Below, piece by piece: positions 2,207 through 24,000 of a DNA stretch of 24,000 bases. The notes under the pieces were generated by a model. The model ran no database searches, was not told the DNA's origin, and worked only from the letters and a program-made list of their open reading frames with translations. Numbering within the stretch: the stretch's first letter is position 1; each line of letters opens with the position of its first letter. The stretch is from an uncultured Lachnospiraceae bacterium. Its GTDB lineage: Bacteria > Bacillota > Clostridia > Eubacteriales > Eubacteriaceae. The position numbers and the translations under genes were made by a program. The stretch spans positions 33,916 to 57,915 of the forward strand of contig CAYFTR010000006.1 of NCBI GenBank assembly GCA_964346185.1, given 5' to 3'.

Positions 2207-2213
2207 GTATGTG

Positions 2214-3587
2214 ATGGCAAAAGTAAAAACAAAATATGTTTGTCAAAATTGCGGTTTCGAATCCGCAAAGTGGTTGGGGCGTTGCACTTCCTGTAATGAA
2301 TGGAACACCATGGTGGAAGAAATCGAAACACCGAGCAGCAAAAGAACTCCGGTGGTATCGGACATTCAAAAGAAAAGTGCCGGGCCTAAAAAACTCAAGG
2401 ATATTCAATTAGCAAAAGATCCGAGAATAAAAACCGGTATCAAAGAGTTGGACAGGGTTCTCGGCGGCGGCATTGTGCCCGGGTCGGTATTGCTGCTCAG
2501 CGGCAACCCGGGTATCGGAAAATCCACCCTGCTAATGCAGACGGTGCAGGCTTTGGGACAAAAGGACATCGGTCTGTTGTATATTTCAGGGGAAGAATCG
2601 GAACAGCAACTGAAAATGCGAGCCATGCGTTTGGGAATTCGGTCGGAAAACGTCTTTTTTTTAGGAGAGACCGATCTTCTCCAAATGCTGCATTGGATCG
2701 GAAAAACTAAACCGAAAATATTAATTATAGACTCCATTCAAACCGTTCAAAATCCGCAATTGGATTCCGCTGCGGGATCGGTTAGCCAAATTAGGGACAA
2801 CACCCATATTTTAATGCAAGTGGCAAAAAAAAATAATATTGCCACCGTATTGGTCGGACACGTTACAAAAGACGGTGCGATTGCAGGTCCGAGGGTGTTA
2901 GAACATATGGTCGATACGGTATTATACTTTGAAGGCGAAAAAAACCACAGTTTCAGAATATTAAGAGGAACGAAAAACCGCTTCGGCTCGACTAATGAAA
3001 TCGGTATTTTTGATATGACTGCAAAAGGTTTAATAGCGGTGGAAAACCCTTCGGAATGGGTATTAAACAGCCGGGCGGAGGGAAGCAGCGGTACAGCCAT
3101 TATCCCAACTATGGAGGGATCACGTCCCCTTTTAATTGAGATACAGGGGTTAATGACCGCTACGGGTTTCGGAACGCCCAGGCGCATGTCCACAGGGTTC
3201 GATTATAATCGCCTGGTTTTACTGATTGCCGTAATGGAAAAACGGATGGGTATCGATATGCAAAATTTCGATGCCTATATCAATGTAGTCGGCGGGTTTA
3301 AAATCGACGAACCGTCTGCGGATTTGGCGATTATTGCCGTATTGTATTCCAGTTTGAAAGATAAACCTGTTCCGGCGGATGTTATGATCCTCGGGGAGGT
3401 CGGCTTAACCGGAGAGGCGCGTTCGGTTCGGTATGCACGGAAAAAAATTAATGAAGGCTTAAAATTTGGCATGAAGCGTTGTATTTTGCCTAAACAAAAC
3501 ATAAAAGAAGTTGAAGATGAGGCGATGACTCTATATCCGGTAACCACTTTGGCCGAAGCTTTACACATTCTCATGGTGGAGGCTTAA
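2214..3587 (+). CDS. radA: DNA repair protein RadA/Sms
   Basis: N-terminal C4 zinc finger (CQNCGFESAKWLGRCTSCNEW), Walker A GNPGIGKST, the RadA-specific KNRFG motif and a Lon-protease-like C-terminal domain. The start is ATG 2214, or GTG 2211 as in the track. Confidence 0.95.
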   Translation: MAKVKTKYVCQNCGFESAKWLGRCTSCNEWNTMVEEIETPSSKRTPVVSDIQKKSAGPKKLKDIQLAKDPRIKTGIKELDRVLGGGIVPGSVLLLSGNPGIGKSTLLMQTVQALGQKDIGLLYISGEESEQQLKMRAMRLGIRSENVFFLGETDLLQMLHWIGKTKPKILIIDSIQTVQNPQLDSAAGSVSQIRDNTHILMQVAKKNNIATVLVGHVTKDGAIAGPRVLEHMVDTVLYFEGEKNHSFRILRGTKNRFGSTNEIGIFDMTAKGLIAVENPSEWVLNSRAEGSSGTAIIPTMEGSRPLLIEIQGLMTATGFGTPRRMSTGFDYNRLVLLIAVMEKRMGIDMQNFDAYINVVGGFKIDEPSADLAIIAVLYSSLKDKPVPADVMILGEVGLTGEARSVRYARKKINEGLKFGMKRCILPKQNIKEVEDEAMTLYPVTTLAEALHILMVEA

Positions 3588-3613
3588 AAGCACCGAGAGG
3601 ATTTTACTAAAAC

Positions 3614-3642
3614 TATACATAAAATTAAGCTTGTGTTATAAT
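3614..3642 (+). promoter_or_regulatory. Extended -10 promoter (TATACA-17 nt-TGtTATAAT) driving the radA-ruvA intergenic RNA
   Basis: TATAAT at 3637-3642 is preceded by TG at 3634-3635. The -35-like TATACA lies at 3614-3619. Confidence 0.55.
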
Positions 3643-3649
3643 ACCTGTA

Positions 3650-3873
3650 CTGGGGTGTGCGTTATCGACTATTTTTGAACCTACACCATTAATACGAGAA
3701 CCCGCGTTTGTTTTTAGATGTCAAGCCTCTATAAGTGGACGGCAGAAGAAAGCAACAGGGTACTCACCTAGTCATTCGCTAGGGCGTCAAAAATAAGAGA
3801 CGGCACCTTGGTATTGCGTATAACGCCGTGCCATTTCGGATTATAACCATCAATCCGAAATGGCACGGCGTTT
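3650..3873 (+). ncRNA. Unclassified structured RNA of about 220 nt: a candidate 6S-like sRNA, or a terminator-containing leader of the ruvA operon
   Basis: Bounded by its own promoter and an 18-bp terminator hairpin, with no credible ORF on either strand. A long imperfect closing helix pairs 3652-3673 with 3810-3832 (perfect 7-bp core GCGUUAU 3659-3665 with AUAACGC 3820-3826). The U-rich single-stranded stretch CUAUUUUUGAACC follows at 3669-3681. Confidence 0.4.
3823..3873 (+). terminator. Intrinsic terminator hairpin with a short U-tract
   Basis: ACGCCGTGCCATTTCGGA (3823-3840) is perfectly complementary to TCCGAAATGGCACGGCGT (3854-3871). The loop is 13 nt and the hairpin is followed by TTTAT. 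Confidence 0.75.
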
Positions 3874-3909
3874 ATCATAAACAAACACAAAGCCTATAGA
3901 AAGGATCTT

Positions 3910-4506
3910 ATGTTCGATTATATTAAAGGTAAAATAGCCCATCAAAGAGAGGATGCCGTTGTTGTTGATATAAACGGTATGGGTTATTTAATTCATATCA
4001 ATTTAAAAACAGCCTCAGAAATACCGGAAAGCCATCGGGAGGTTATCCTTTATCTTTATCCCGTTTTTAAAGATGACAATGTTGCCTTATACGGCTTTTT
4101 TCATTTAGAAGAAAGAGAAATGCTTAAGACATTAACGACGGTTTCGGGTATCGGTGTGAAAGGGGGGCTGGGAATATTGTCCTATTTTACAGTTGAAACG
4201 CTGATAAGCCACATTGTCAATGAAGATATTAAGGCTTTGAGCCAAGCACCGGGTATCGGGAAAAAAACCGCTGAACGTTTAATTTTTGAATTAAAGGACA
4301 AGTTTAAAGATGTTTTAGATAATAAGACATCGGAGCCTGAACAAACAATCGGAGTAGTAAAAAGTATCCACGACGAAGTGGTTGAAGCTTTGGTTACTTT
4401 GGGGTATTCTTATTCTGAAGCTCGGGCAAGTGCTAAAAAAGCCTACCGGGAAAACACCACCTTGGAAGAAATGATTAAGGAATGCTTGATTCTTTTAGCG
4501 CAATAA
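3910..4506 (+). CDS. ruvA: Holliday junction branch migration complex subunit RuvA
   Basis: N-terminus MFDYIKGKI, helix-hairpin-helix motifs ([22 protein letters not shown]) and a C-terminal domain III. RBS AAAGGA lies upstream. Confidence 0.95.
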
Positions 4507-5549: not shown

Positions 5550-7719
<2,170 letters not shown>

Positions 7720-8123: not shown

Positions 8124-8264
8124 ATGAAACACATCAAAATTATCAACAAAGGCAATCTTTCAGAAATTAAAAATAAAGGTTGCGGCGAATGCCAAACTTC
8201 TTGCCAATCGGCTTGTAAAACCTCTTGTACCGTAGGCAACCAACAATGCCGTCAAAGTAAGTAA
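8124..8264 (+). CDS. scfA: Six-cysteine ranthipeptide precursor SCIFF (46 aa; below the ORF-track length cutoff)
   Basis: RBS GGAG sits 8 nt upstream of ATG 8124. The translation is MKHIKIINKGNLSEIKNKGCGECQTSCQSACKTSCTVGNQQCRQSK. It carries the hallmark GCGECQTSCQSACKTSCTVGNQ core with six Cys and lies immediately upstream of a radical-SAM/SPASM enzyme. Confidence 0.9.
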   Translation: MKHIKIINKGNLSEIKNKGCGECQTSCQSACKTSCTVGNQQCRQSK

Positions 8265-8367: not shown

Positions 8368-8414
8368 ATTGAAACAATTGCATTGTTTTGAAAATCCGAT
8401 TAAAGGAGAATACA

Positions 8415-9770
8415 GTGGTTCATCAGTTTTATAGAAAAGGGTATTACGTCGTATTAGATGTAGATACCTCAACACTAATGACTGTCGACGCTATGACCTA
8501 TCGTCTCATTGAAGACTTTATGCGTTTAAACAGACAGGAATTGGTCGAAAAATATGCACCGGAATACGGCAAGCGACAGGTCGCCGATGCTGTCGATGAA
8601 ATACAGAGCATGGTGGATGACGGGCTTTTGTTTACCGATCACCGATACGATCCGTCATTTTATCGCGGTCATGACGGCGTTAAGGCACTTTGTCTACACA
8701 TTGCCCACGACTGCAACTTAAAATGCGAATACTGCTTTGCCTCCCAAGGAGACTTTAAGGGCGAGCGTTCACTAATGTCCCTCGAAGTGGGAAAAAAAGC
8801 CGTTGACTTTGTTATTGAAGCCTCAAATCAACGTAAAAATATAGAAATCGACTTTTTCGGCGGAGAGCCTTTAATGAACTTTGATGTGGTTAAAAACATT
8901 GTTGATTACGCACGTCAACGTGAAAAAGAAACCGGCAAACATTTCAACTTTACCATGACCACCAACGGTGTATTACTGGACCGGGAAAAGCGGGATTATC
9001 TCAACGCCAATATGAACAATATCGTTTTAAGTCTGGACGGTCGAAAGGAAGTAAACGATCGGGTTCGCAAAACACTCAACGACAAAGGTTCTTACGAAAC
9101 CATTGCCGACAATATTTTTAATATGGTTGAGGAGCGGGGAGATAAAGAATACTATGTTCGCGGCACCTACACCAAATACAACCCGGACTTTTCAAAGGAC
9201 GTTTTATTTTTGGCACAACAGGGAGTTAAGGAGATCTCCGTCGAACCCGTCGTTGCTAAAGCAGATCGGGATTACGCCGTTTTGAAAGAGGATTTACCGA
9301 GAATTTTGGAAGAGTACGACACCTTACTCGACGAAATGATTGAAGATTATCGCAAAAACGGGGAAGAATCTTTTCGCTTTTTTCACTATATTTTGGACAT
9401 GAATAACGGCCCTTGTGTTTACAAACGTCTGTCCGGATGCGGTGCGGGCAACGACTATCTGGCAGTAACCCCCGAGGGCGATTTATACCCCTGTCACCAA
9501 TTTGTTGGGGAAGAGACCTTTAAATTAGGAACATTGGATACCGGTTTAGAAAAAAAGCTAATGACCGAAGATTTTAAAAAAGCCAATTTACTGGAAAAAG
9601 AAGCGTGTCAAAGTTGCTGGTGTAAATATTTTTGTGGCGGCGGTTGCCACGCCAATGCCTATAATTTTAACCAAACGCTTTTAAAACCCTATGATGTTGC
9701 CTGCGAAATCGAAAAAAGACGTGTGGAAAACGCTCTGATTCTTCAAATAATAAAGAATGAAGAATATTGA
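8415..9770 (+). CDS. scfB: Thioether cross-link-forming SCIFF peptide maturase (radical SAM with SPASM domain)
   Basis: GTG 8415 follows AAAGGAG (8403-8409); the track start 8388 is a likely 5' extension. It has the radical SAM CxxxCxxC motif (CNLKCEYC), and a C-terminal Cys-rich SPASM region (CVYKRLSGCGAG...PCHQF...CQSCWCKYFCGGGCHANAY). It is adjacent to the SCIFF precursor. Confidence 0.9.
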   Translation: MVHQFYRKGYYVVLDVDTSTLMTVDAMTYRLIEDFMRLNRQELVEKYAPEYGKRQVADAVDEIQSMVDDGLLFTDHRYDPSFYRGHDGVKALCLHIAHDCNLKCEYCFASQGDFKGERSLMSLEVGKKAVDFVIEASNQRKNIEIDFFGGEPLMNFDVVKNIVDYARQREKETGKHFNFTMTTNGVLLDREKRDYLNANMNNIVLSLDGRKEVNDRVRKTLNDKGSYETIADNIFNMVEERGDKEYYVRGTYTKYNPDFSKDVLFLAQQGVKEISVEPVVAKADRDYAVLKEDLPRILEEYDTLLDEMIEDYRKNGEESFRFFHYILDMNNGPCVYKRLSGCGAGNDYLAVTPEGDLYPCHQFVGEETFKLGTLDTGLEKKLMTEDFKKANLLEKEACQSCWCKYFCGGGCHANAYNFNQTLLKPYDVACEIEKRRVENALILQIIKNEEY

Positions 9771-9796: not shown

Positions 9797-9802
9797 TAAA
9801 AT

Positions 9803-10039
9803 CTCCTGAGTCTGTGGTTGAAAATCAATGCCAGTCGCAGGCGAAATGATCCACGTAAGGCTTATAAAAATCTAAAAAGCTGAGCATAGTGCGGCTTAGA
9901 AGTAAGTCCGGCCGACGCAGTCGAGAGGAAGAGTCGTGAATAGCTAAATTCCCAGCCGGCGAGTGTGGGGGTAAAGACCAGGTCAGTCAGGAGAGCTGCA
10001 GCCGAGTCTGCTCGTAATGAGCAGGCTCGGCTGCTTTTT
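9803..10039 (+). ncRNA. Stand-alone structured RNA of about 235 nt immediately upstream of hpf/raiA: a candidate raiA-motif RNA
   Basis: It has its own strong promoter and a 16-bp terminator. No credible ORF is present; the minus ORF 9862..10152 spans the terminator and a promoter. The 5' and 3' ends pair (CUCCUGA 9803-9809 with UCAGGAG 9987-9993, CUG 9812-9814 with CAG 9984-9986, UGGUU 9815-9819 with GACCA 9976-9980). There are GC-rich internal complementarities (CCGGC 9908-9912 with GCCGG 9955-9959). The position directly 5' of hpf matches the described raiA-motif locus. Confidence 0.5.
9998..10039 (+). terminator. Strong intrinsic terminator
   Basis: GCAGCCGAGTCTGCTC (9998-10013) pairs with GAGCAGGCTCGGCTGC (10019-10034) with one G-U pair. 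The loop is 5 nt and TTTTT follows. Confidence 0.85.
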
Positions 10040-10189: not shown

Positions 10190-10249
10190 CATCTTACATT
10201 CAACCGTTCATTCATCAGAAATCAACGACATTTGAAAGGAGTAGCAATA

Positions 10250-10780
10250 ATGAAATTCACCATTTATGGAAAAAACATGCACGTATCGGAAGGGTTAAAG
10301 GAAACTTTAAGAAAAAAGTTTGAAAAATTTGATCGTTACTTTGACAGAGAAACGGAAGTTTACGCGACTTTTAGTAGAGAAAAAAACCACAATGTTTTAG
10401 AAGTAACAATACCTATGGGTAAAACAATTTTGCGTGCAGAAGAAATAACGGAGGACATGGTCGGTTCAATCGAAGCGGTTGTCGATAAGTTGGAAGGTCA
10501 ACTGCGGAAACATAAATCAAAGCTTAAAAAACAATATGCCGGAGAGTCACTCAGATACAATTTCGATGCGATTGAAACTGTTGAAGAGGAAAACGAAGGA
10601 CCGAAGGTTGTACGTACAAAAAAATTTGCAGTTAAACCTATGTCTGTTGATGAAGCAACCATGCAAATGGAATTGTTAGGGCACGACTTCTTTGTGTTTT
10701 TGAACGGTGAAACCGATGATGTCAATGTCGTTTATATGAGAAAAGATGGAAATTACGGGCTTATTGAACCCATATTTTAA
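10250..10780 (+). CDS. hpf: Ribosome hibernation promoting factor, long form (RaiA/YfiA/HPF family)
   Basis: ATG 10250 follows AAAGGAG; the track start 10232 is a 5' extension. The N-terminal sigma-54-modulation/S30EA fold is indicated by MKFTIYGKNMHVSEGLKE. The C-terminal dimerisation domain is indicated by VVRTKKFAVKPMSVDEATMQMELLGHDFFVFLN. Confidence 0.93.
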   Translation: MKFTIYGKNMHVSEGLKETLRKKFEKFDRYFDRETEVYATFSREKNHNVLEVTIPMGKTILRAEEITEDMVGSIEAVVDKLEGQLRKHKSKLKKQYAGESLRYNFDAIETVEEENEGPKVVRTKKFAVKPMSVDEATMQMELLGHDFFVFLNGETDDVNVVYMRKDGNYGLIEPIF

Positions 10781-12485: not shown

Positions 12486-12503
12486 ATTAAATAAGAGGAT
12501 TCT

Positions 12504-12543
12504 AAAAAAAGTTGGGGTACACCATCGTACCCCAACTTTTTTT
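12504..12543. terminator. Intrinsic terminator, symmetric A-tract/T-tract
   Basis: GTTGGGGTAC (12511-12520) pairs with GTACCCCAAC (12527-12536). It is flanked by AAAAAAA upstream and TTTTTTT downstream. Confidence 0.8.
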
Positions 12544-13011
12544 AAGTGAATTTTTACAAAAATATCTGATGATAAAATGTTAAAAAAGTAAAGTCATAAA
12601 CAAAGCTGTAACCCGCACTCTGTCGGCATCACTAAGCTTGTACTCGACAAAACGTTTACCTTGTAGTTATATCAATACTATTTGAACAATATTCGATTAT
12701 GACATAGTAGAAAAAAGAAACGGACAAATCATTAAAATAAAAAAGTTTAGTTTTTATAAAATTTTGTAAAGTCGGTCTGACGACGGCAGTCTTAATATTT
12801 GTTAATTACAAGTGTCCGAATAAAGGTTAATATCTTAGAATGCAACGCCCTTTAGATGTTTTAGCCTTATTCCTATGGAAATCTTGCCCATCGCATTACC
12901 TTACAAGAACTCAAACACGTCGTTTACATGTTTTATGCGAATGTTCGCCCGACATGCAAAAACATTAAAAAGGTTGAAAGTTGGAAAAGCCTTAGCTACA
13001 AACTTAAACGT

Positions 13012-13040
13012 CTTGTAAAGCCTGTCAAAAAGTGAGATAA
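13012..13040 (+). promoter_or_regulatory. Candidate promoter for secA (TTGTAA-17 nt-GATAAT)
   Basis: TTGTAA at 13012-13017 and GATAAT at 13035-13040, with TG at 13032-13033. RBS AAGGAGAG follows at 13060-13067. Confidence 0.4.
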
Positions 13041-13071
13041 TTTTTCAGAACAACGCATTAAGGAGAGACAT

Positions 13072-15618: not shown

Positions 15619-16717
15619 GTGATCGATGTTTATGAAATTAAACAAAGCATTGAAGAAATGAACGATTTACTGATAAAGCTGGGTGATTCACTTTGACTTA
15701 CCGAGTTTAAGAAGAGAAATCGAAACTTATACGAAAGAAACGGAACAACCGGACTTTTGGAGCGACAGCGACAAAGCCCAAAAAATTTTAAAAAAATTAA
15801 AGCAACTTAAATACAAAGTAGATCAATATGACCGTTTGACCGACGATCTGGACGACTTTAAAATTATGCTGGAATTACTGGAAGTCGGTGAAGAGGTCGG
15901 AAATATCGACAAAGAGCTGGCCGCTTACCGCGAAGGATTGGAAAACTTTAAATTGGAAACCTTACTTTCCGGCGAGTACGACGGCAACAATGCCATTATT
16001 TCAATTCATTCCGGTGCCGGGGGCACCGAATCCCAGGACTGGGCGGAAATGCTCTTACGTATGTTTACCCGTTGGGCGGAGAAAAAGGGTTATAAACTGA
16101 AAACGCTGGACTTACAACCGGGCGATGTCGCCGGTATTAAAAGTGCAACCATTTTAGTAGAAGGAGTAAATGCCTACGGTTATCTGAAAACGGAAAGAGG
16201 TGTCCACCGATTGGTGCGTATCTCTCCTTTCGACTCCTCCGGCAGACGCCACACCTCCTTTGCCTCTCTGGATGTGGTACCGGAAGTGGACGACACGGTA
16301 GAAATAGACATTAACCCCGACGATATTCGCGTGGATACCTATCGTGCCAGCGGTGCCGGCGGGCAACACGTCAACAAAACCTCCTCTGCGGTGCGTATTA
16401 CCCACATACCGACGGGCATTGTTGTTCAATGCCAAAACGAGCGTTCCCAACACCAAAACAGAGATGTTGCCATGAATATGCTCAAAAGTAAACTCATCGA
16501 AGTCCTGGAGCAGGAAAACAAAGAAAAACTGGACGATATAGTTGGCGACTACTCTCAAATTGCTTGGGGTTCACAAATCAGATCCTATGTGTTTCACCCC
16601 TATACCATGGTAAAAGACCATCGTACCAATGTGGAAATGGGCAATATTCAATCCGTAATGGACGGAGATATCGACCCTTTTATGAATGCCTACTTGCAAC
16701 AACAAGTGAAAGCTTAG
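15619..16717 (+). CDS. prfB: Peptide chain release factor 2, requiring a programmed +1 frameshift at 15691-15697
   Basis: Frame 0 runs from GTG 15619 (MIDVYEIKQSIEEMNDLLIKLGDSL) to the in-frame TGA at 15694-15696. The +1 frame continues DLPSLRREIE... to 16717. The SPF tripeptide (RISPFDS) and GGQ (SGAGGQHVN) are present. The track shows only the downstream frame. Confidence 0.95.
15681..15697 (+). promoter_or_regulatory. prfB recoding site: internal Shine-Dalgarno-like GGGUGAU plus the slippery CUU UGA C
   Basis: GGGTGATTCACTTTGAC. GGUGAU matches the extended anti-SD complement. CTT TGA C is the canonical RF2 shift site. Confidence 0.85.
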
Positions 16718-21825: not shown

Positions 21826-24000
21826 ATGAAAAGACTGTTGCCGATTTCAATACTTTTTTCAATAGCCGGAATTATATTCATTTATTTTCGTGCCCCGTTT
21901 TATCTGCTCATTTTATTGTTCGGTTTGTTACTTGTCGTACCGTTGTTCTTTTCTTTTAATAACATGTCCCAATCGGCAACGCTAATGTTTATTTTTTTAT
22001 GTGTTGTGTTTCGTATGTCGCAATTGAATACGCAGCAAATGGAATTGCAACCTTTTTATGATACGGAACACACCTACGAAGCCGTTGTAATCGATGAAGT
22101 GCAAATAGACAATGGCAGAGGTCGTTCTACCCTACAACTGTTAAACGGGGAAGAGCAACCCCTCAAAGGGAAGGTGATCTTTCATGTATACGATGTGTCC
22201 CGACCTCAATTAATCCAACCGGGACAGGTCATTCGGTTTAAAGGTACCTTAAGGGAATTATCCCCTAAGAGAAATCCCGGCGGCTTCAACGAGAAACTAC
22301 ATTATACCACCAAAGGTGTCTACGGTCGATTGACTCTCTCCGAAAACAGCATAGAGCCGGTAGGGTATCGGGAACGTTGGACCTTTAAGTTTTTGCATTT
22401 TCGACGTTTGTTGGTCCATCAATTAACGACCTTAACGGAGCGGCAACCGGTCCGTGACTTGGTAAGTACTTTGTTGCTGGGGGAAAAGCTCCATGATACA
22501 ACGATAGAGGAAGGTTTCAGAACGGTGGGTATCTCCCATATTTTAGCCATATCGGGCATGCATGTGGGGTTTTTATCGATGGCGTTATTAAAGTTGTTTG
22601 AGCGACTTAAAATTCCCGATAAAATCGCACGCATATTAAGCGTTATAGGATTATTCTTTTATGCGATGTTGGTGGCATTTCCGGTTTCGGTCGTTCGTGC
22701 GGTACTTATGTTGGGCATTTACCAAGCGGGTGTTGTTTTAAAGCAAGTTAAAGATGCTTTTTCGGCATTGTTGGCGACGACCGCCATCGTTTTGATGGTC
22801 TATCCCGTGCAGTTGTTTTCTTTGAGTTTTCAACTTTCCTTTATGGCAACCCTCGGAATTATTTTGTTTTATCAACCCCTCCGTTATCGACTGGAACGCC
22901 GTACGGGAAGAACATCTTTTATCGGTGACAGTATTCTTTTAACCCTGTCTGCCAACGCAACGACGTTACCTATTGTTTTATTTTATTTTCACCGGTTTAA
23001 TTTATTGTCTTTTATCGGAAATATTCTTGTTGTGCCGCTTGTTGGTTTTGTATTTATTTATACCGTTGTGTTGTTACCCCTAAGCTTTGTTTTTCAAGGG
23101 ATGACTATCTTTTTGTTTCAATTTGTCCAATGGACGGTACAGTTTATTTTATGGATAACGAAAACCCTTGGCAGTATTGACGGTTTTACTTTTAGAGGTG
23201 TCGGTTTGCCCCTTGCTTTGATACTGTTGTTAGCGATTTTTATTTTTTATGCAGCTGGTTATTATCGTCCGAAGAAAAAGGGAAAGGTGGCGGTTTGTGT
23301 TCTGTTGCTTCTTGTTGCACTTATAGATGCCAAGACTTTACCCTTGACTGAACAACCCTTAAAGATATACTTTTTAGATATCGGTCAGGGGGATGCAACC
23401 TTACTTCGTACGCCGAAAGGGTACACGTATTTAATTGACGGCGGCGGTTACCAACAGGAAATTTTGGATTTAAAAAAAATACAACCGCAACCCGTGTCCC
23501 AATCGGTGCTGCTTCCCGCTTTATATGCAACCGGTGCCGACCGTATCGATGCTGCAATCATCACTCATAACCACGAAGATCACAGTCAGGGTGTCGAGGA
23601 ATTGTTGACGATGTTTCCCGTCGGGCGACTTTATCTATCAACAAAAAACAACCATCCCGTATTGGGGCAAATGGCATGTATCGATGTACGTTACCTGGCT
23701 GCCGGTCAAGCTCTAAAAACGCCCGACGGCGTTGTAATTGAGTGCTTATGGCCGACCCTACCCGTAGAAGCTCTTGACGATACATTGCAAAATCACCATG
23801 CGATGGTTTTACGCTTAGGCTACGGCAATCACCGGTTATTAATGATGTCGGACAGCGATGTTCAAACCGAAACGGCATTGGCGGACAATTTAGGTGATGT
23901 TGCTATTTTACGTGTCGGTCATCACGGGTCCAAAACGTCTACAGGCGAGGAGCTGCTGCATAAAACCAACCCCGAGGCTGCCGTTATTTCCGTCGGTCGT
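21826..24000 (+). CDS. comEC: DNA internalisation competence protein ComEC/Rec2 (3' end outside the window; absent from the ORF track because no stop is reached)
   Basis: My translation from ATG 21826 stays in one frame where I checked it (starts of codons at 22531 and 23362). It gives an N-terminal TM region, RNPGGFNEKLHY and the competence domain GISHILAISGMHVGFL. The metallo-beta-lactamase domain follows (IYFLDIGQGDATLLRTPKG, THNHEDHSQG, LRVGHHGSKTS). Confidence 0.9.
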   Translation, partial: MKRLLPISILFSIAGIIFIYFRAPFYLLILLFGLLLVVPLFFSFNNMSQSATLMFIFLCVVFRMSQLNTQQMELQPFYDTEHTYEAVVIDEVQIDNGRGRSTLQLLNGEEQPLKGKVIFHVYDVSRPQLIQPGQVIRFKGTLRELSPKRNPGGFNEKLHYTTKGVYGRLTLSENSIEPVGYRERWTFKFLHFRRLLVHQLTTLTERQPVRDLVSTLLLGEKLHDTTIEEGFRTVGISHILAISGMHVGFLSMALLKLFERLKIPDKIARILSVIGLFFYAMLVAFPVSVVRAVLMLGIYQAGVVLKQVKDAFSALLATTAIVLMVYPVQLFSLSFQLSFMATLGIILFYQPLRYRLERRTGRTSFIGDSILLTLSANATTLPIVLFYFHRFNLLSFIGNILVVPLVGFVFIYTVVLLPLSFVFQGMTIFLFQFVQWTVQFILWITKTLGSIDGFTFRGVGLPLALILLLAIFIFYAAGYYRPKKKGKVAVCVLLLLVALIDAKTLPLTEQPLKIYFLDIGQGDATLLRTPKGYTYLIDGGGYQQEILDLKKIQPQPVSQSVLLPALYATGADRIDAAIITHNHEDHSQGVEELLTMFPVGRLYLSTKNNHPVLGQMACIDVRYLAAGQALKTPDGVVIECLWPTLPVEALDDTLQNHHAMVLRLGYGNHRLLMMSDSDVQTETALADNLGDVAILRVGHHGSKTSTGEELLHKTNPEAAVISVGR

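What the first reader, a model, noticed from the sequence alone, without database searches (positions are those of the whole stretch)
3614..3909. Promoter-to-terminator RNA unit between radA and ruvA whose closing helix competes with its own terminator (6S-like sRNA or novel leader?)
An extended -10 promoter (TGtTATAAT) fires about 260 nt upstream of ruvA into a region with no plausible ORF on either strand. Nucleotides 3652-3673 can form a roughly 20-bp imperfect helix with 3810-3832. Positions 3823-3832 are also the base of a perfect 18-bp terminator stem (3823-3840 with 3854-3871) that has only a short U-tract (UUUAU). Two readings are possible. (a) It is a rod-like sRNA with paired ends and a U-rich internal loop; CUAUUUUUGAACC resembles, from my memory of it, the pRNA-template region of Bacillus 6S-1. 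(b) It is an antiterminator/terminator leader controlling ruvAB-queA-tgt-yajC-scfAB, for which I know of no described riboswitch class.
Basis: partly seen in the sequence, partly recalled or inferred. Interest (0 to 1): 0.65.

Follow-up and report, generated by a model that had tools for sequence, protein, structure and literature searches.

The report
Ordinary 6S RNA gene with terminator
The promoter-to-hairpin unit between radA and ruvA is a standard 6S RNA gene, encoding the small RNA that mimics an open promoter and sequesters RNA polymerase, followed by its own terminator hairpin; it is not a new riboswitch or leader.

Summary
Window 3644-3818 (+) matches the Rfam 6S/SsrS model end to end at 80.9 bits, against a gathering score of 46.4 (E 8.6e-15). 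No other RNA family reaches its threshold in the spacer.

- **Promoter:** a conserved extended -10 promoter (TATACA-17-TGtTATAAT, 3614-3642) sits directly 5' of the RNA.
- **Hairpin:** a 21-bp hairpin (3822-3872) follows the RNA. It carries four compensatory pair changes across three relatives.
- **Synteny:** the radA-6S-ruvA order recurs only in close Eubacteriaceae relatives. More distant 6S genes that share the bubble motif lie in other contexts.
- **Competing helix:** It is no better than chance, has about zero ensemble probability, costs 19.5 kcal/mol to force, and its pairs are not conserved.
- **pRNA template:** The predicted pRNA start is C3684.

Reading (a), 6S, is right. Reading (b), a leader, is rejected. 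One open point remains: ruvA has no visible promoter of its own, so it may depend on read-through of the hairpin.

Verdict: already known kind, low interest.

The parts
3614..3642 (+). sigma-A type promoter of the 6S gene: -35-like TATACA (3614-3619), 17-nt spacer, extended -10 TGtTATAAT (3634-3642). The predicted start is about 3647-3650.
   Evidence: Consensus scan. The same site is the only promoter-like hit in the L001 and L081 spacers. The block TTTTACnAAAACTATACATAAAA and TGnTATAAT is conserved while the adjacent radA-proximal spacer diverges. The start site is inferred from geometry and from where conserved pairing begins.
3644..3818 (+). 6S RNA (ssrS-type) gene as delimited by the Rfam model. 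The conserved rod probably spans 3647/3648-3814.
   Evidence: RF00013: 80.9 bits against gathering 46.4, E 8.6e-15, model positions 1-187 of 187, and again in the local search. The homologous hits in L001, L081, L082 and L091 score 73.6-77.9 bits.
3647..3666 (+). 5' strand of the closing (terminal) helix. It pairs with 3797-3814.
   Evidence: MFE helices 3647-3658/3803-3814, 3660-3663/3799-3802 and 3665-3666/3797-3798. In the RNAalifold consensus, alignment columns 5/178, 6/177, 11/172 and 12/171 change on both sides.
3797..3814 (+). 3' strand of the closing helix.
3670..3678 (+). 5' strand of the bubble-proximal helix (P2-like). It pairs with 3787-3795 and lies within the predicted pRNA template.
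   Evidence: 9-bp helix UAUUUUUGA/UCAAAAAUA in the MFE. The helix is lost when the template is blocked.
3679..3695 (+). 5' side of the central bubble. The predicted pRNA start is at C3684 and the predicted pRNA is 5'-GUAGGUUCAAAAAU...
   Evidence: Unpaired in the MFE. C3684 aligns with the E. coli U44 column of the Rfam alignment (read by eye; U44 as the E. coli pRNA start site is named in PMC8876501). It also aligns with C40 of B. subtilis 6S-1 through the 13/19 template match (PMC12005410; start at nt 40 per PMC8876501). This is inference, not an experiment.
3696..3765 (+). Internal and apical arm of the rod.
   Evidence: MFE helices. The RNAalifold consensus keeps the arm, with changes on both sides at alignment columns 67/120, 68/119 and 76/113.
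3766..3786 (+). 3' side of the central bubble, with a small hairpin 3767-3772/3778-3783.
   Evidence: MFE. A small 3'-bubble hairpin in the free RNA is described for B. subtilis 6S-1 (PMC8876501).
3822..3872 (+). 21-bp hairpin (loop 3843-3851) followed by the tail UUUAUCAU. It is the intrinsic terminator of the 6S gene, and of any radA read-through.
   Evidence: -37 kcal/mol. 98.4% of cells are paired and 4 of 21 pairs change on both sides across the window, L001 and L081. The homologous L001 hairpin is called terminator-like. Actual termination was not tested.
3899..3912 (+). ruvA ribosome-binding site GAAAGGA (3899-3905) and ATG (3910), 37 nt after the hairpin.
   Evidence: Sequence. RuvA matches TIGR00084 at 191.6 bits. 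No promoter-like site lies between 3643 and 3896 on the + strand.

Best explanation
This is a 6S RNA gene. A sigma-A promoter (3614-3642) starts transcription at about 3648. The RNA folds into the canonical 6S rod: a closing helix (3647-3666 with 3797-3814), a large central bubble (3679-3695 opposite 3766-3786), and an internal/apical arm (3696-3765). Transcription ends at a long hairpin (3822-3872) followed by a short U-rich tail.

By homology with the E. coli and B. subtilis 6S RNAs, the rod mimics an open promoter. It occupies the active site of the housekeeping RNA polymerase holoenzyme and damps sigma-A-dependent transcription. When nucleotides become plentiful, the polymerase copies the 5' bubble strand from about C3684 into a short product RNA (predicted 5'-GUAGGUUCAAAAAU). 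This unzips the helix 3670-3678 with 3787-3795 and releases the enzyme.

Shown here: family membership, the fold, conservation of the promoter and the hairpin, and compatibility of the 6S fold with the hairpin. Inferred: the transcript ends, polymerase binding, pRNA synthesis, and how efficiently the hairpin terminates.
For: - **Family hit:** a full-length Rfam 6S hit at 80.9 bits against gathering 46.4. It is the only family above threshold in the spacer.
- **Relatives:** the same hit scores 73.6-77.9 bits in L001, L081, L082 and L091, which share the radA-6S-ruvA order.
- **Conservation:** within the spacer, the promoter, the 6S gene and the hairpin arms are far better conserved than the stretch between radA and the promoter, the hairpin loop, or the stretch between the hairpin and ruvA.
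- **Fold:** the MFE of 3644-3876 is the 6S rod plus a separate hairpin, with z = -7.2.
- **Covariation:** in the RNAalifold consensus of six 6S sequences, 7 of 43 pairs change on both sides, four of them in the closing helix.
- **Hairpin:** 4 of 21 pairs are compensatory in three sequences.
- **Promoter:** it is conserved, and it is the only promoter-like site in the spacers of relatives.
- **pRNA template:** 13 of 19 identical to B. subtilis 6S-1 (PMC12005410). The start position agrees with the E. coli U44 column in the model alignment.
- **Precedent:** 6S genes with a -10 TATAAT and a rho-independent terminator are described in Firmicutes (PMC8414754). B. subtilis 6S-2 carries a putative terminator hairpin (PMC10578484).
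Against: - There are no expression data, so the transcript ends, abundance and polymerase binding are untested.
- The z-score of the 6S core alone is modest (-2.3), as expected for an RNA with a large bubble.
- L087, L088 and L090 were found with a pattern built on the bubble motif, so conservation of that motif in them is by construction.
- The hairpin is unusually long and its U-tract is interrupted, so it may not terminate efficiently.
- Blocking the predicted template did not produce a clear 'central bubble collapse helix' like that of B. subtilis 6S-1.
Confidence: 0.93

Rival explanations
1. The 6S identity stands, but the hairpin is a leaky terminator or a processing and stabilising site rather than a full stop. 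In this reading ruvAB-queA-tgt-yajC has no promoter of its own. It is transcribed by read-through from the 6S promoter and/or from radA, and 6S is cut out of a longer transcript, as with E. coli ssrS-ygfA. A 21-bp perfect duplex is also long enough to be an RNase III substrate.
For: - Only 37 nt separate the hairpin from the ruvA ATG, and no promoter-like site lies between 3643 and 3896 on the + strand.
- The same holds in L001 and L081, where the 6S promoter is the only site in the spacer.
- The tail UUUAUCAU (UUUAGCAU in L081) is an interrupted U-tract.
- No hairpin lies between the radA stop and the 6S promoter.
- That E. coli 6S is co-transcribed with ygfA and then processed comes from my own knowledge of the literature and was not checked here.
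Against: - The hairpin is very stable (-37 kcal/mol).
- The homologous L001 hairpin, with the same tail, meets the terminator rule of the scan.
- The 6S gene of L088 is followed by a hairpin with a similarly interrupted U-tract even though the next gene is convergent. Such tails may therefore be normal terminators in these organisms.
- The promoter scan uses a strict consensus and could miss a weak or alternative-sigma ruvA promoter.
Confidence: 0.3
2. The unit is a cis-acting leader (riboswitch or attenuator) of ruvAB-queA-tgt. Nucleotides 3652-3673 act as an antiterminator by pairing with the 5' arm of the terminator (3810-3832).
For: - An interrupted duplex of -14.4 kcal/mol can be drawn. 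Duplexes of similar energy can be drawn in L001 and L081.
- ruvA follows directly, without a visible promoter.
Against: - The duplex is at chance level: 4.8% of random 23-mers do as well, and 162 of 200 random 300-nt stretches contain one.
- Its pairs differ between relatives, with GCGUUAU/AUAACGC in the window and UGUGC/GCACA in L001 and L081. The changes on the 3' side are not matched by changes on the invariant 5' side.
- Its pair probability is at most 5e-5 in full and nascent transcripts, and forcing it costs 19.5 kcal/mol.
- The 5' strand is already paired with 3797-3814, which is transcribed earlier.
- No riboswitch or leader family matches, even at E up to 1.
- The region is a full-length 6S RNA.
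Confidence: 0.02
3. The match is a chance structure in an intergenic spacer and no stable RNA is made.
For: The z-score for the 6S core alone is modest, and there are no expression data.
Against: - E 8.6e-15 against the curated 6S model.
- The core is conserved far above the rest of the spacer.
- There is covariation in the helices.
- The promoter is conserved.
Confidence: 0.01

Closest known systems
Bacillus subtilis 6S-1 RNA (bsrA)
   Same: - Rod with a central bubble, and a small hairpin in the 3' bubble strand.
- The pRNA template is 13 of 19 identical (CACCUAGUUUUGACCGAAC against CGACUAUUUUUGAACCUAC).
- The predicted pRNA starts with G opposite a C, as at C40 of 6S-1 (PMC12005410, PMC8876501).
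- It has a sigma-A type promoter.
   Different: - B. subtilis pre-6S-1 has an 11-nt 5' leader removed by RNase J1 (PMC10578484). Here the -10 box abuts the closing helix, so little or no leader is expected.
- The genomic context differs.
- No clear collapse helix was predicted here.
Bacillus subtilis 6S-2 RNA (bsrB)
   Same: A 6S core with a putative terminator hairpin at its 3' end (PMC10578484).
   Different: - From my own knowledge, the 6S-2 pRNA starts with A. That paper (PMC3753640) was listed but not read.
- Here the predicted start is G.
- Whether the hairpin stays on the mature RNA here is unknown.
Escherichia coli 6S RNA (ssrS-ygfA)
   Same: - It belongs to the same Rfam family.
- C3684 aligns with the column of the pRNA start U44.
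- The gene lies directly upstream of a protein-coding gene on the same strand, which allows co-transcription.
   Different: - The downstream gene is ruvA, not ygfA.
- From my own knowledge, E. coli 6S is matured by RNase E/G and exonucleases from longer transcripts, without a strong hairpin between 6S and ygfA.
6S RNA of lactic acid bacteria (rarA-6S-uspA synteny)
   Same: - The gene neighbourhood is conserved at family level only.
- A TATAAT -10 box and a rho-independent terminator have been reported at a candidate 6S gene in these bacteria (PMC8414754).
- A recombination-related gene is a neighbour.
   Different: The neighbours here are radA and ruvA. This order was seen only in a narrow Eubacteriaceae clade.

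Membership tests
6S / SsrS RNA (Rfam RF00013) | Score at or above the curated gathering score, over the whole model. | tested here: met
   80.9 bits against 46.4, model positions 1-187 of 187, E 8.6e-15. Repeated in the local search.
6S / SsrS RNA (Rfam RF00013) | Rod-like fold of a closing helix, a large central bubble and an internal/apical arm, supported by covariation. | tested here: met
   MFE folds. In the RNAalifold consensus of six sequences, 7 of 43 pairs change on both sides. Only four distinct lineages are sampled, so the statistical weight is limited.
6S / SsrS RNA (Rfam RF00013) | A pRNA template in the 5' strand of the central bubble. | tested here: inconclusive
   The sequence is 13 of 19 identical to the B. 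subtilis 6S-1 template (PMC12005410). C3684 aligns with the E. coli U44 column. Templating itself was not tested.
6S / SsrS RNA (Rfam RF00013) | An independent small gene of about 160-200 nt with its own promoter. | tested here: met
   The core is 167-175 nt. The extended -10 promoter is conserved directly upstream.
6S / SsrS RNA (Rfam RF00013) | Binds the housekeeping sigma holoenzyme and is released by pRNA synthesis. | not testable with these tools
   This needs gel shifts and in vitro transcription with sigma-A RNA polymerase.
Riboswitch or attenuator leader (terminator/antiterminator) | Mutually exclusive antiterminator and terminator helices, conserved or covarying in relatives. | tested here: not met
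   The alternative helix is at chance level, has probability of about 0 and costs 19.5 kcal/mol to force. Its pairs are not conserved.
Riboswitch or attenuator leader (terminator/antiterminator) | A match to a described aptamer or leader family. | tested here: not met
   No cis-regulatory family matches at E up to 1. Only 6S and sub-threshold generic hairpin matches appear.
Intrinsic (rho-independent) terminator | A G+C-rich hairpin immediately followed by a U-rich tract. | tested here: met
   21 bp, -37 kcal/mol, tail UUUAUCAU. The homologous L001 hairpin passes the scan.
Intrinsic (rho-independent) terminator | Transcripts end at the tail in vivo. | not testable with these tools
   This needs Term-seq, 3' RACE or a northern blot.

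The most novel reading that the evidence does not exclude
In this Eubacteriaceae clade the ruvAB-queA-tgt-yajC operon may have no promoter of its own. It would then be expressed only by read-through or processing at the long, weak-tailed hairpin behind the 6S gene. Holliday-junction resolution and queuosine tRNA modification would be transcriptionally coupled to the promoter of the global RNA polymerase regulator 6S.
Probability: 0.3. Interest if true: 0.3.

Novelty: already known. Interest (0 to 1): 0.1.

Why it matters
It matters little beyond correct annotation. The spacer holds the genome's 6S RNA gene, which a standard Rfam scan finds. The practical value is that it removes a false lead for a new riboswitch upstream of ruvAB-queA-tgt.

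Two minor points could interest 6S specialists. First, radA-6S-ruvA is a synteny I did not find reported: a search for '6S RNA' together with 'ruvA' returned seven papers, none of whose titles or abstracts links the two. Second, the ruvAB operon may depend on read-through of the 6S terminator.

Tried and rejected
- **Genome scan:** the RuvB-anchored scan of genome contigs returned one close relative (L001) and 79 distant ones. Of the 20 loci scanned with Rfam, only L001 has a 6S gene near ruvA.
- **Exact look-up:** the window's own RuvA is not on record.
- **Next-closest RuvA relatives:** L084 and L085 (46% and 45% identity) have a bofC-like gene upstream of ruvA and no 6S within 3 kb.
- **Metagenome pattern scan:** one search gave 7 loci. 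Three of them (L086, L089, L092) gave no 6S hit. The other four match the motif by construction.
I tested it by duplex energy against random partners, by pair probabilities in full and nascent transcripts and by forced folding, and by conservation. I rejected it.
- **Transient local hairpin:** in nascent transcripts that lack the 3' arm, 3809-3833 forms a local hairpin that partly opens the outer closing pairs. It disappears in the full transcript and I do not regard it as regulatory.
- **Collapse helix:** I looked for a pRNA-induced 'collapse helix' by blocking the template. None was clear.
- **Literature:** a search for 6S together with ruvA found nothing relevant.
- **Small ORFs in the spacer:** I rejected them. 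All are 40 aa or less with TTG or GTG starts, and they overlap the conserved RNA.

Full report
**What is in the sequence.** The spacer lies between radA (2211-3587; TIGR00416, 600 bits) and ruvA (3910-4506; TIGR00084, 191.6 bits). It is followed by ruvB, queA, tgt, yajC and scfB.

The spacer contains a promoter-like site with an extended -10 box: TATACA (3614-3619), 17 nt, then TGtTATAAT (3634-3642). Only ORFs of 40 aa or less with TTG or GTG starts overlap the spacer.

It extends to 21 bp (3822-3842 with 3852-3872, loop 3843-3851) at -37 kcal/mol, with the tail UUUAUCAU. These parts of the observation are confirmed.

**What it is.** A scan of the whole window against Rfam 15 gives a full-length match to 6S/SsrS RNA (RF00013) at 3644-3818 on the + strand. 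It scores 80.9 bits against a gathering score of 46.4, E 8.6e-15, covering model positions 1-187.

A permissive scan of 3560-3960 finds no other family near its threshold. Only generic hairpin matches to microRNA precursor models appear on the terminator, at 18.6-30.8 bits, far below their gathering scores of 58-100.

The minimum-free-energy fold of 3644-3876 is the 6S rod plus a separate hairpin (-88.5 kcal/mol, z = -7.2). The helices are:

| Element | Coordinates |
|---|---|
| Closing helix | 3647-3658/3803-3814, 3660-3663/3799-3802, 3665-3666/3797-3798 |
| Bubble-proximal helix | 3670-3678/3787-3795 |
| 5' bubble strand (open) | 3679-3695 |
| Internal/apical arm | 3696-3765 |
| 3' bubble strand, with small hairpin | 3766-3786 (hairpin 3767-3772/3778-3783) |

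**Relatives.**
- A RuvB-anchored genome scan found one close relative, a Eubacteriaceae MAG (L001, RuvB 90% identical).
- Look-ups of RuvA homologues added L081-L083 (RuvA 81% identical). A metagenome scan added L091.
- L001, L081 and L091 have radA, a 6S hit (73.6-77.9 bits) and ruvA in the same order. L082 and L083 are short contigs. L082 carries the 6S hit upstream of ruvA, and L083 carries the end of the 6S gene and the hairpin upstream of ruvA.
- In the spacer alignment, the promoter block, the 6S gene and the hairpin arms are nearly invariant. The stretch between radA and the promoter, the hairpin loop, and the stretch between the hairpin and ruvA all diverge.
- The next-closest RuvA relatives (L084 and L085, 46% and 45% identical) have a bofC-like gene upstream of ruvA and no 6S nearby. 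None of 19 more distant loci has one either. The radA-6S-ruvA order is therefore confined to a narrow clade.
- A metagenome scan with a pattern built on the two bubble strands gave four further 6S genes (L087, L088, L090, L091). L087, L088 and L090 have different stems and show no radA, ruvA or ruvB match. L088 and L087 were read directly. Their bubble motif is conserved by construction and proves nothing, but their stems are informative.

**Structure support.** In the RNAalifold consensus of six 6S sequences, 7 of 43 pairs change on both sides with pairing kept. Four of these are in the closing helix. The consensus closing helix begins at window 3648 paired with 3813.

Outside that point, pairing is not kept in L081 (read by eye). 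This fits a transcription start about 6-8 nt after the -10 box, so little or no 5' leader is expected.

The hairpin is 98.4% paired in three distinct sequences, with 4 of 21 pairs changed on both sides. Sliding the partner by 1-3 columns drops pairing to 32-43%.

The same promoter is the only promoter-like site in the L001 and L081 spacers. The homologous L001 hairpin, with a 7-nt loop, passes the terminator rule.

**The claimed competition with the terminator.** Several tests count against it:
- **Chance level:** 4.8% of random 23-mers from the window pair with the same 5' strand at least as well. 162 of 200 random 300-nt stretches contain such a partner.
- **Conservation:** in L001 and L081 a duplex of similar energy uses different pairs (UGUGC/GCACA instead of GCGUUAU/AUAACGC). 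The substitutions and an insertion on the 3' side are not compensated on the invariant 5' side.
- **Probability:** in the full transcript the alternative pairs have probability of about 0. The closing helix and hairpin pairs are at about 0.9-1.0.
- **Nascent transcripts:** in transcripts ending at 3832, 3840 or 3853, the alternative pairs stay at or below 5e-5.
- **Energy cost:** forcing the alternative helix costs 19.5 kcal/mol, giving -69.0 against -88.5.
- **Overlap and order:** the real closing helix ends at 3814 and the hairpin starts at 3822, so the two do not overlap. The 3' strand of the closing helix is transcribed before the hairpin.

The antiterminator reading is therefore rejected.

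**The recalled resemblance to Bacillus 6S-1.** The published 6S-1 product RNA is 5'-GUUCGGUCAAAACUAGGUG (PMC12005410). Its template is therefore 5'-CACCUAGUUUUGACCGAAC, with the start at C40 (PMC8876501). Window 3666-3684 reads CGACUAUUUUUGAACCUAC, which is 13 of 19 identical without gaps.

In the Rfam alignment, C3684 also falls in the column of the E. coli start site U44 (read by eye). The predicted product RNA is 5'-GUAGGUUCAAAAAU. Its 14-mer duplex with the template is -16.6 kcal/mol, and blocking the template removes the helix 3670-3678 with 3787-3795. This is inference from homology.

**Mechanism.**
- **Shown:** family membership, the fold, a conserved promoter, and a conserved, covarying hairpin.
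- **Inferred from the established biology of the family:** the RNA mimics an open promoter and occupies sigma-A holoenzyme, and it is released when the polymerase copies the 5' bubble strand into a short product RNA (PMC8876501, PMC8414754).
- **Precedent for the hairpin:** a 6S core followed by a terminator hairpin has a precedent in B. subtilis 6S-2 (PMC10578484).

**What remains open.** Only 37 nt separate the hairpin from the ruvA start codon. No promoter-like site lies between 3643 and 3896 on the + strand, here or in the relatives. The U-tract is interrupted.

It is therefore possible that ruvAB-queA-tgt-yajC is transcribed by read-through from the 6S promoter or from radA, with the hairpin acting as a partial terminator or processing site. 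I put this at about 0.3.

Against it, the hairpin is very stable. Also, the L088 6S gene ends in a hairpin with a similarly interrupted tail even though the next gene is convergent. Only transcript mapping can decide.

**Verdict.** This is a known kind of RNA that a standard covariance-model scan finds.
The promoter, the lack of ORFs and the hairpin are real. The 'closing helix' is in the wrong register and at chance level.
The 6S reading holds, and the leader and competition readings do not.
- Interest is low.

Noticed in passing
window 9801-9995 (+): A full-length raiA motif RNA (RF03072, 172 bits against gathering 101.3) lies just after scfB. It is about 236 nt upstream of a ribosome hibernation factor gene (10232-10780; Ribosomal_S30AE plus S30AE_C domains).
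   Followed up: partly
window 8124-8264 (+): A 46-aa ORF with six cysteines (MKHIKIINKGNLSEIKNKGCGECQTSCQSACKTSCTVGNQQCRQSK) lies between yajC and the SCIFF maturase scfB (8388-9770). It is the expected scfA precursor peptide.
   Followed up: partly
window 15619-16717 (+): The release factor gene (PCRF plus RF-1 domains) has the classic RF2 +1 frameshift site CTT TGA C at 15691-15697. It follows a 25-codon first frame that starts at GTG 15619. This was read by eye from the sequence.
   Followed up: partly
window 6526-6584: The mechanical tgt ORF starts at 6526 and overlaps queA by 59 nt. The TIGR00430 match begins at residue 26, so the true start is probably near 6600.
   Followed up: no
window about 21830-24000 (+): This apparently ORF-poor stretch looks coding on the + strand. 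It carries a motif (SHILAISGMHVG, about 22533) that I recognise from memory as ComEC-like, and no domain search was run. A frame that runs off the window end would be missing from the ORF list.
   Followed up: partly
window 12486-13071: A 586-nt gap upstream of secA has no convincing ORF and no Rfam match. A hairpin at about 12493-12556 is probably the terminator of the preceding gene.
   Followed up: partly
L088 497-672 (+), L090 44-219 (-), L087 7458-7636 (-): These 6S RNA genes from other metagenomic lineages share the bubble strands UUUUGAACCUAC and CUCACCUAG but have different stems. None shows a radA, ruvA or ruvB match. The L088 copy is followed by a hairpin with an interrupted U-tract ahead of a convergent gene.
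   Followed up: partly
window 3809-3833: In folds of nascent transcripts that end before the 3' arm of the hairpin, the 5' arm pairs locally with 3809-3818. This partly opens the outer 6S closing pairs. The structure vanishes once the 3' arm is present.
   Followed up: yes
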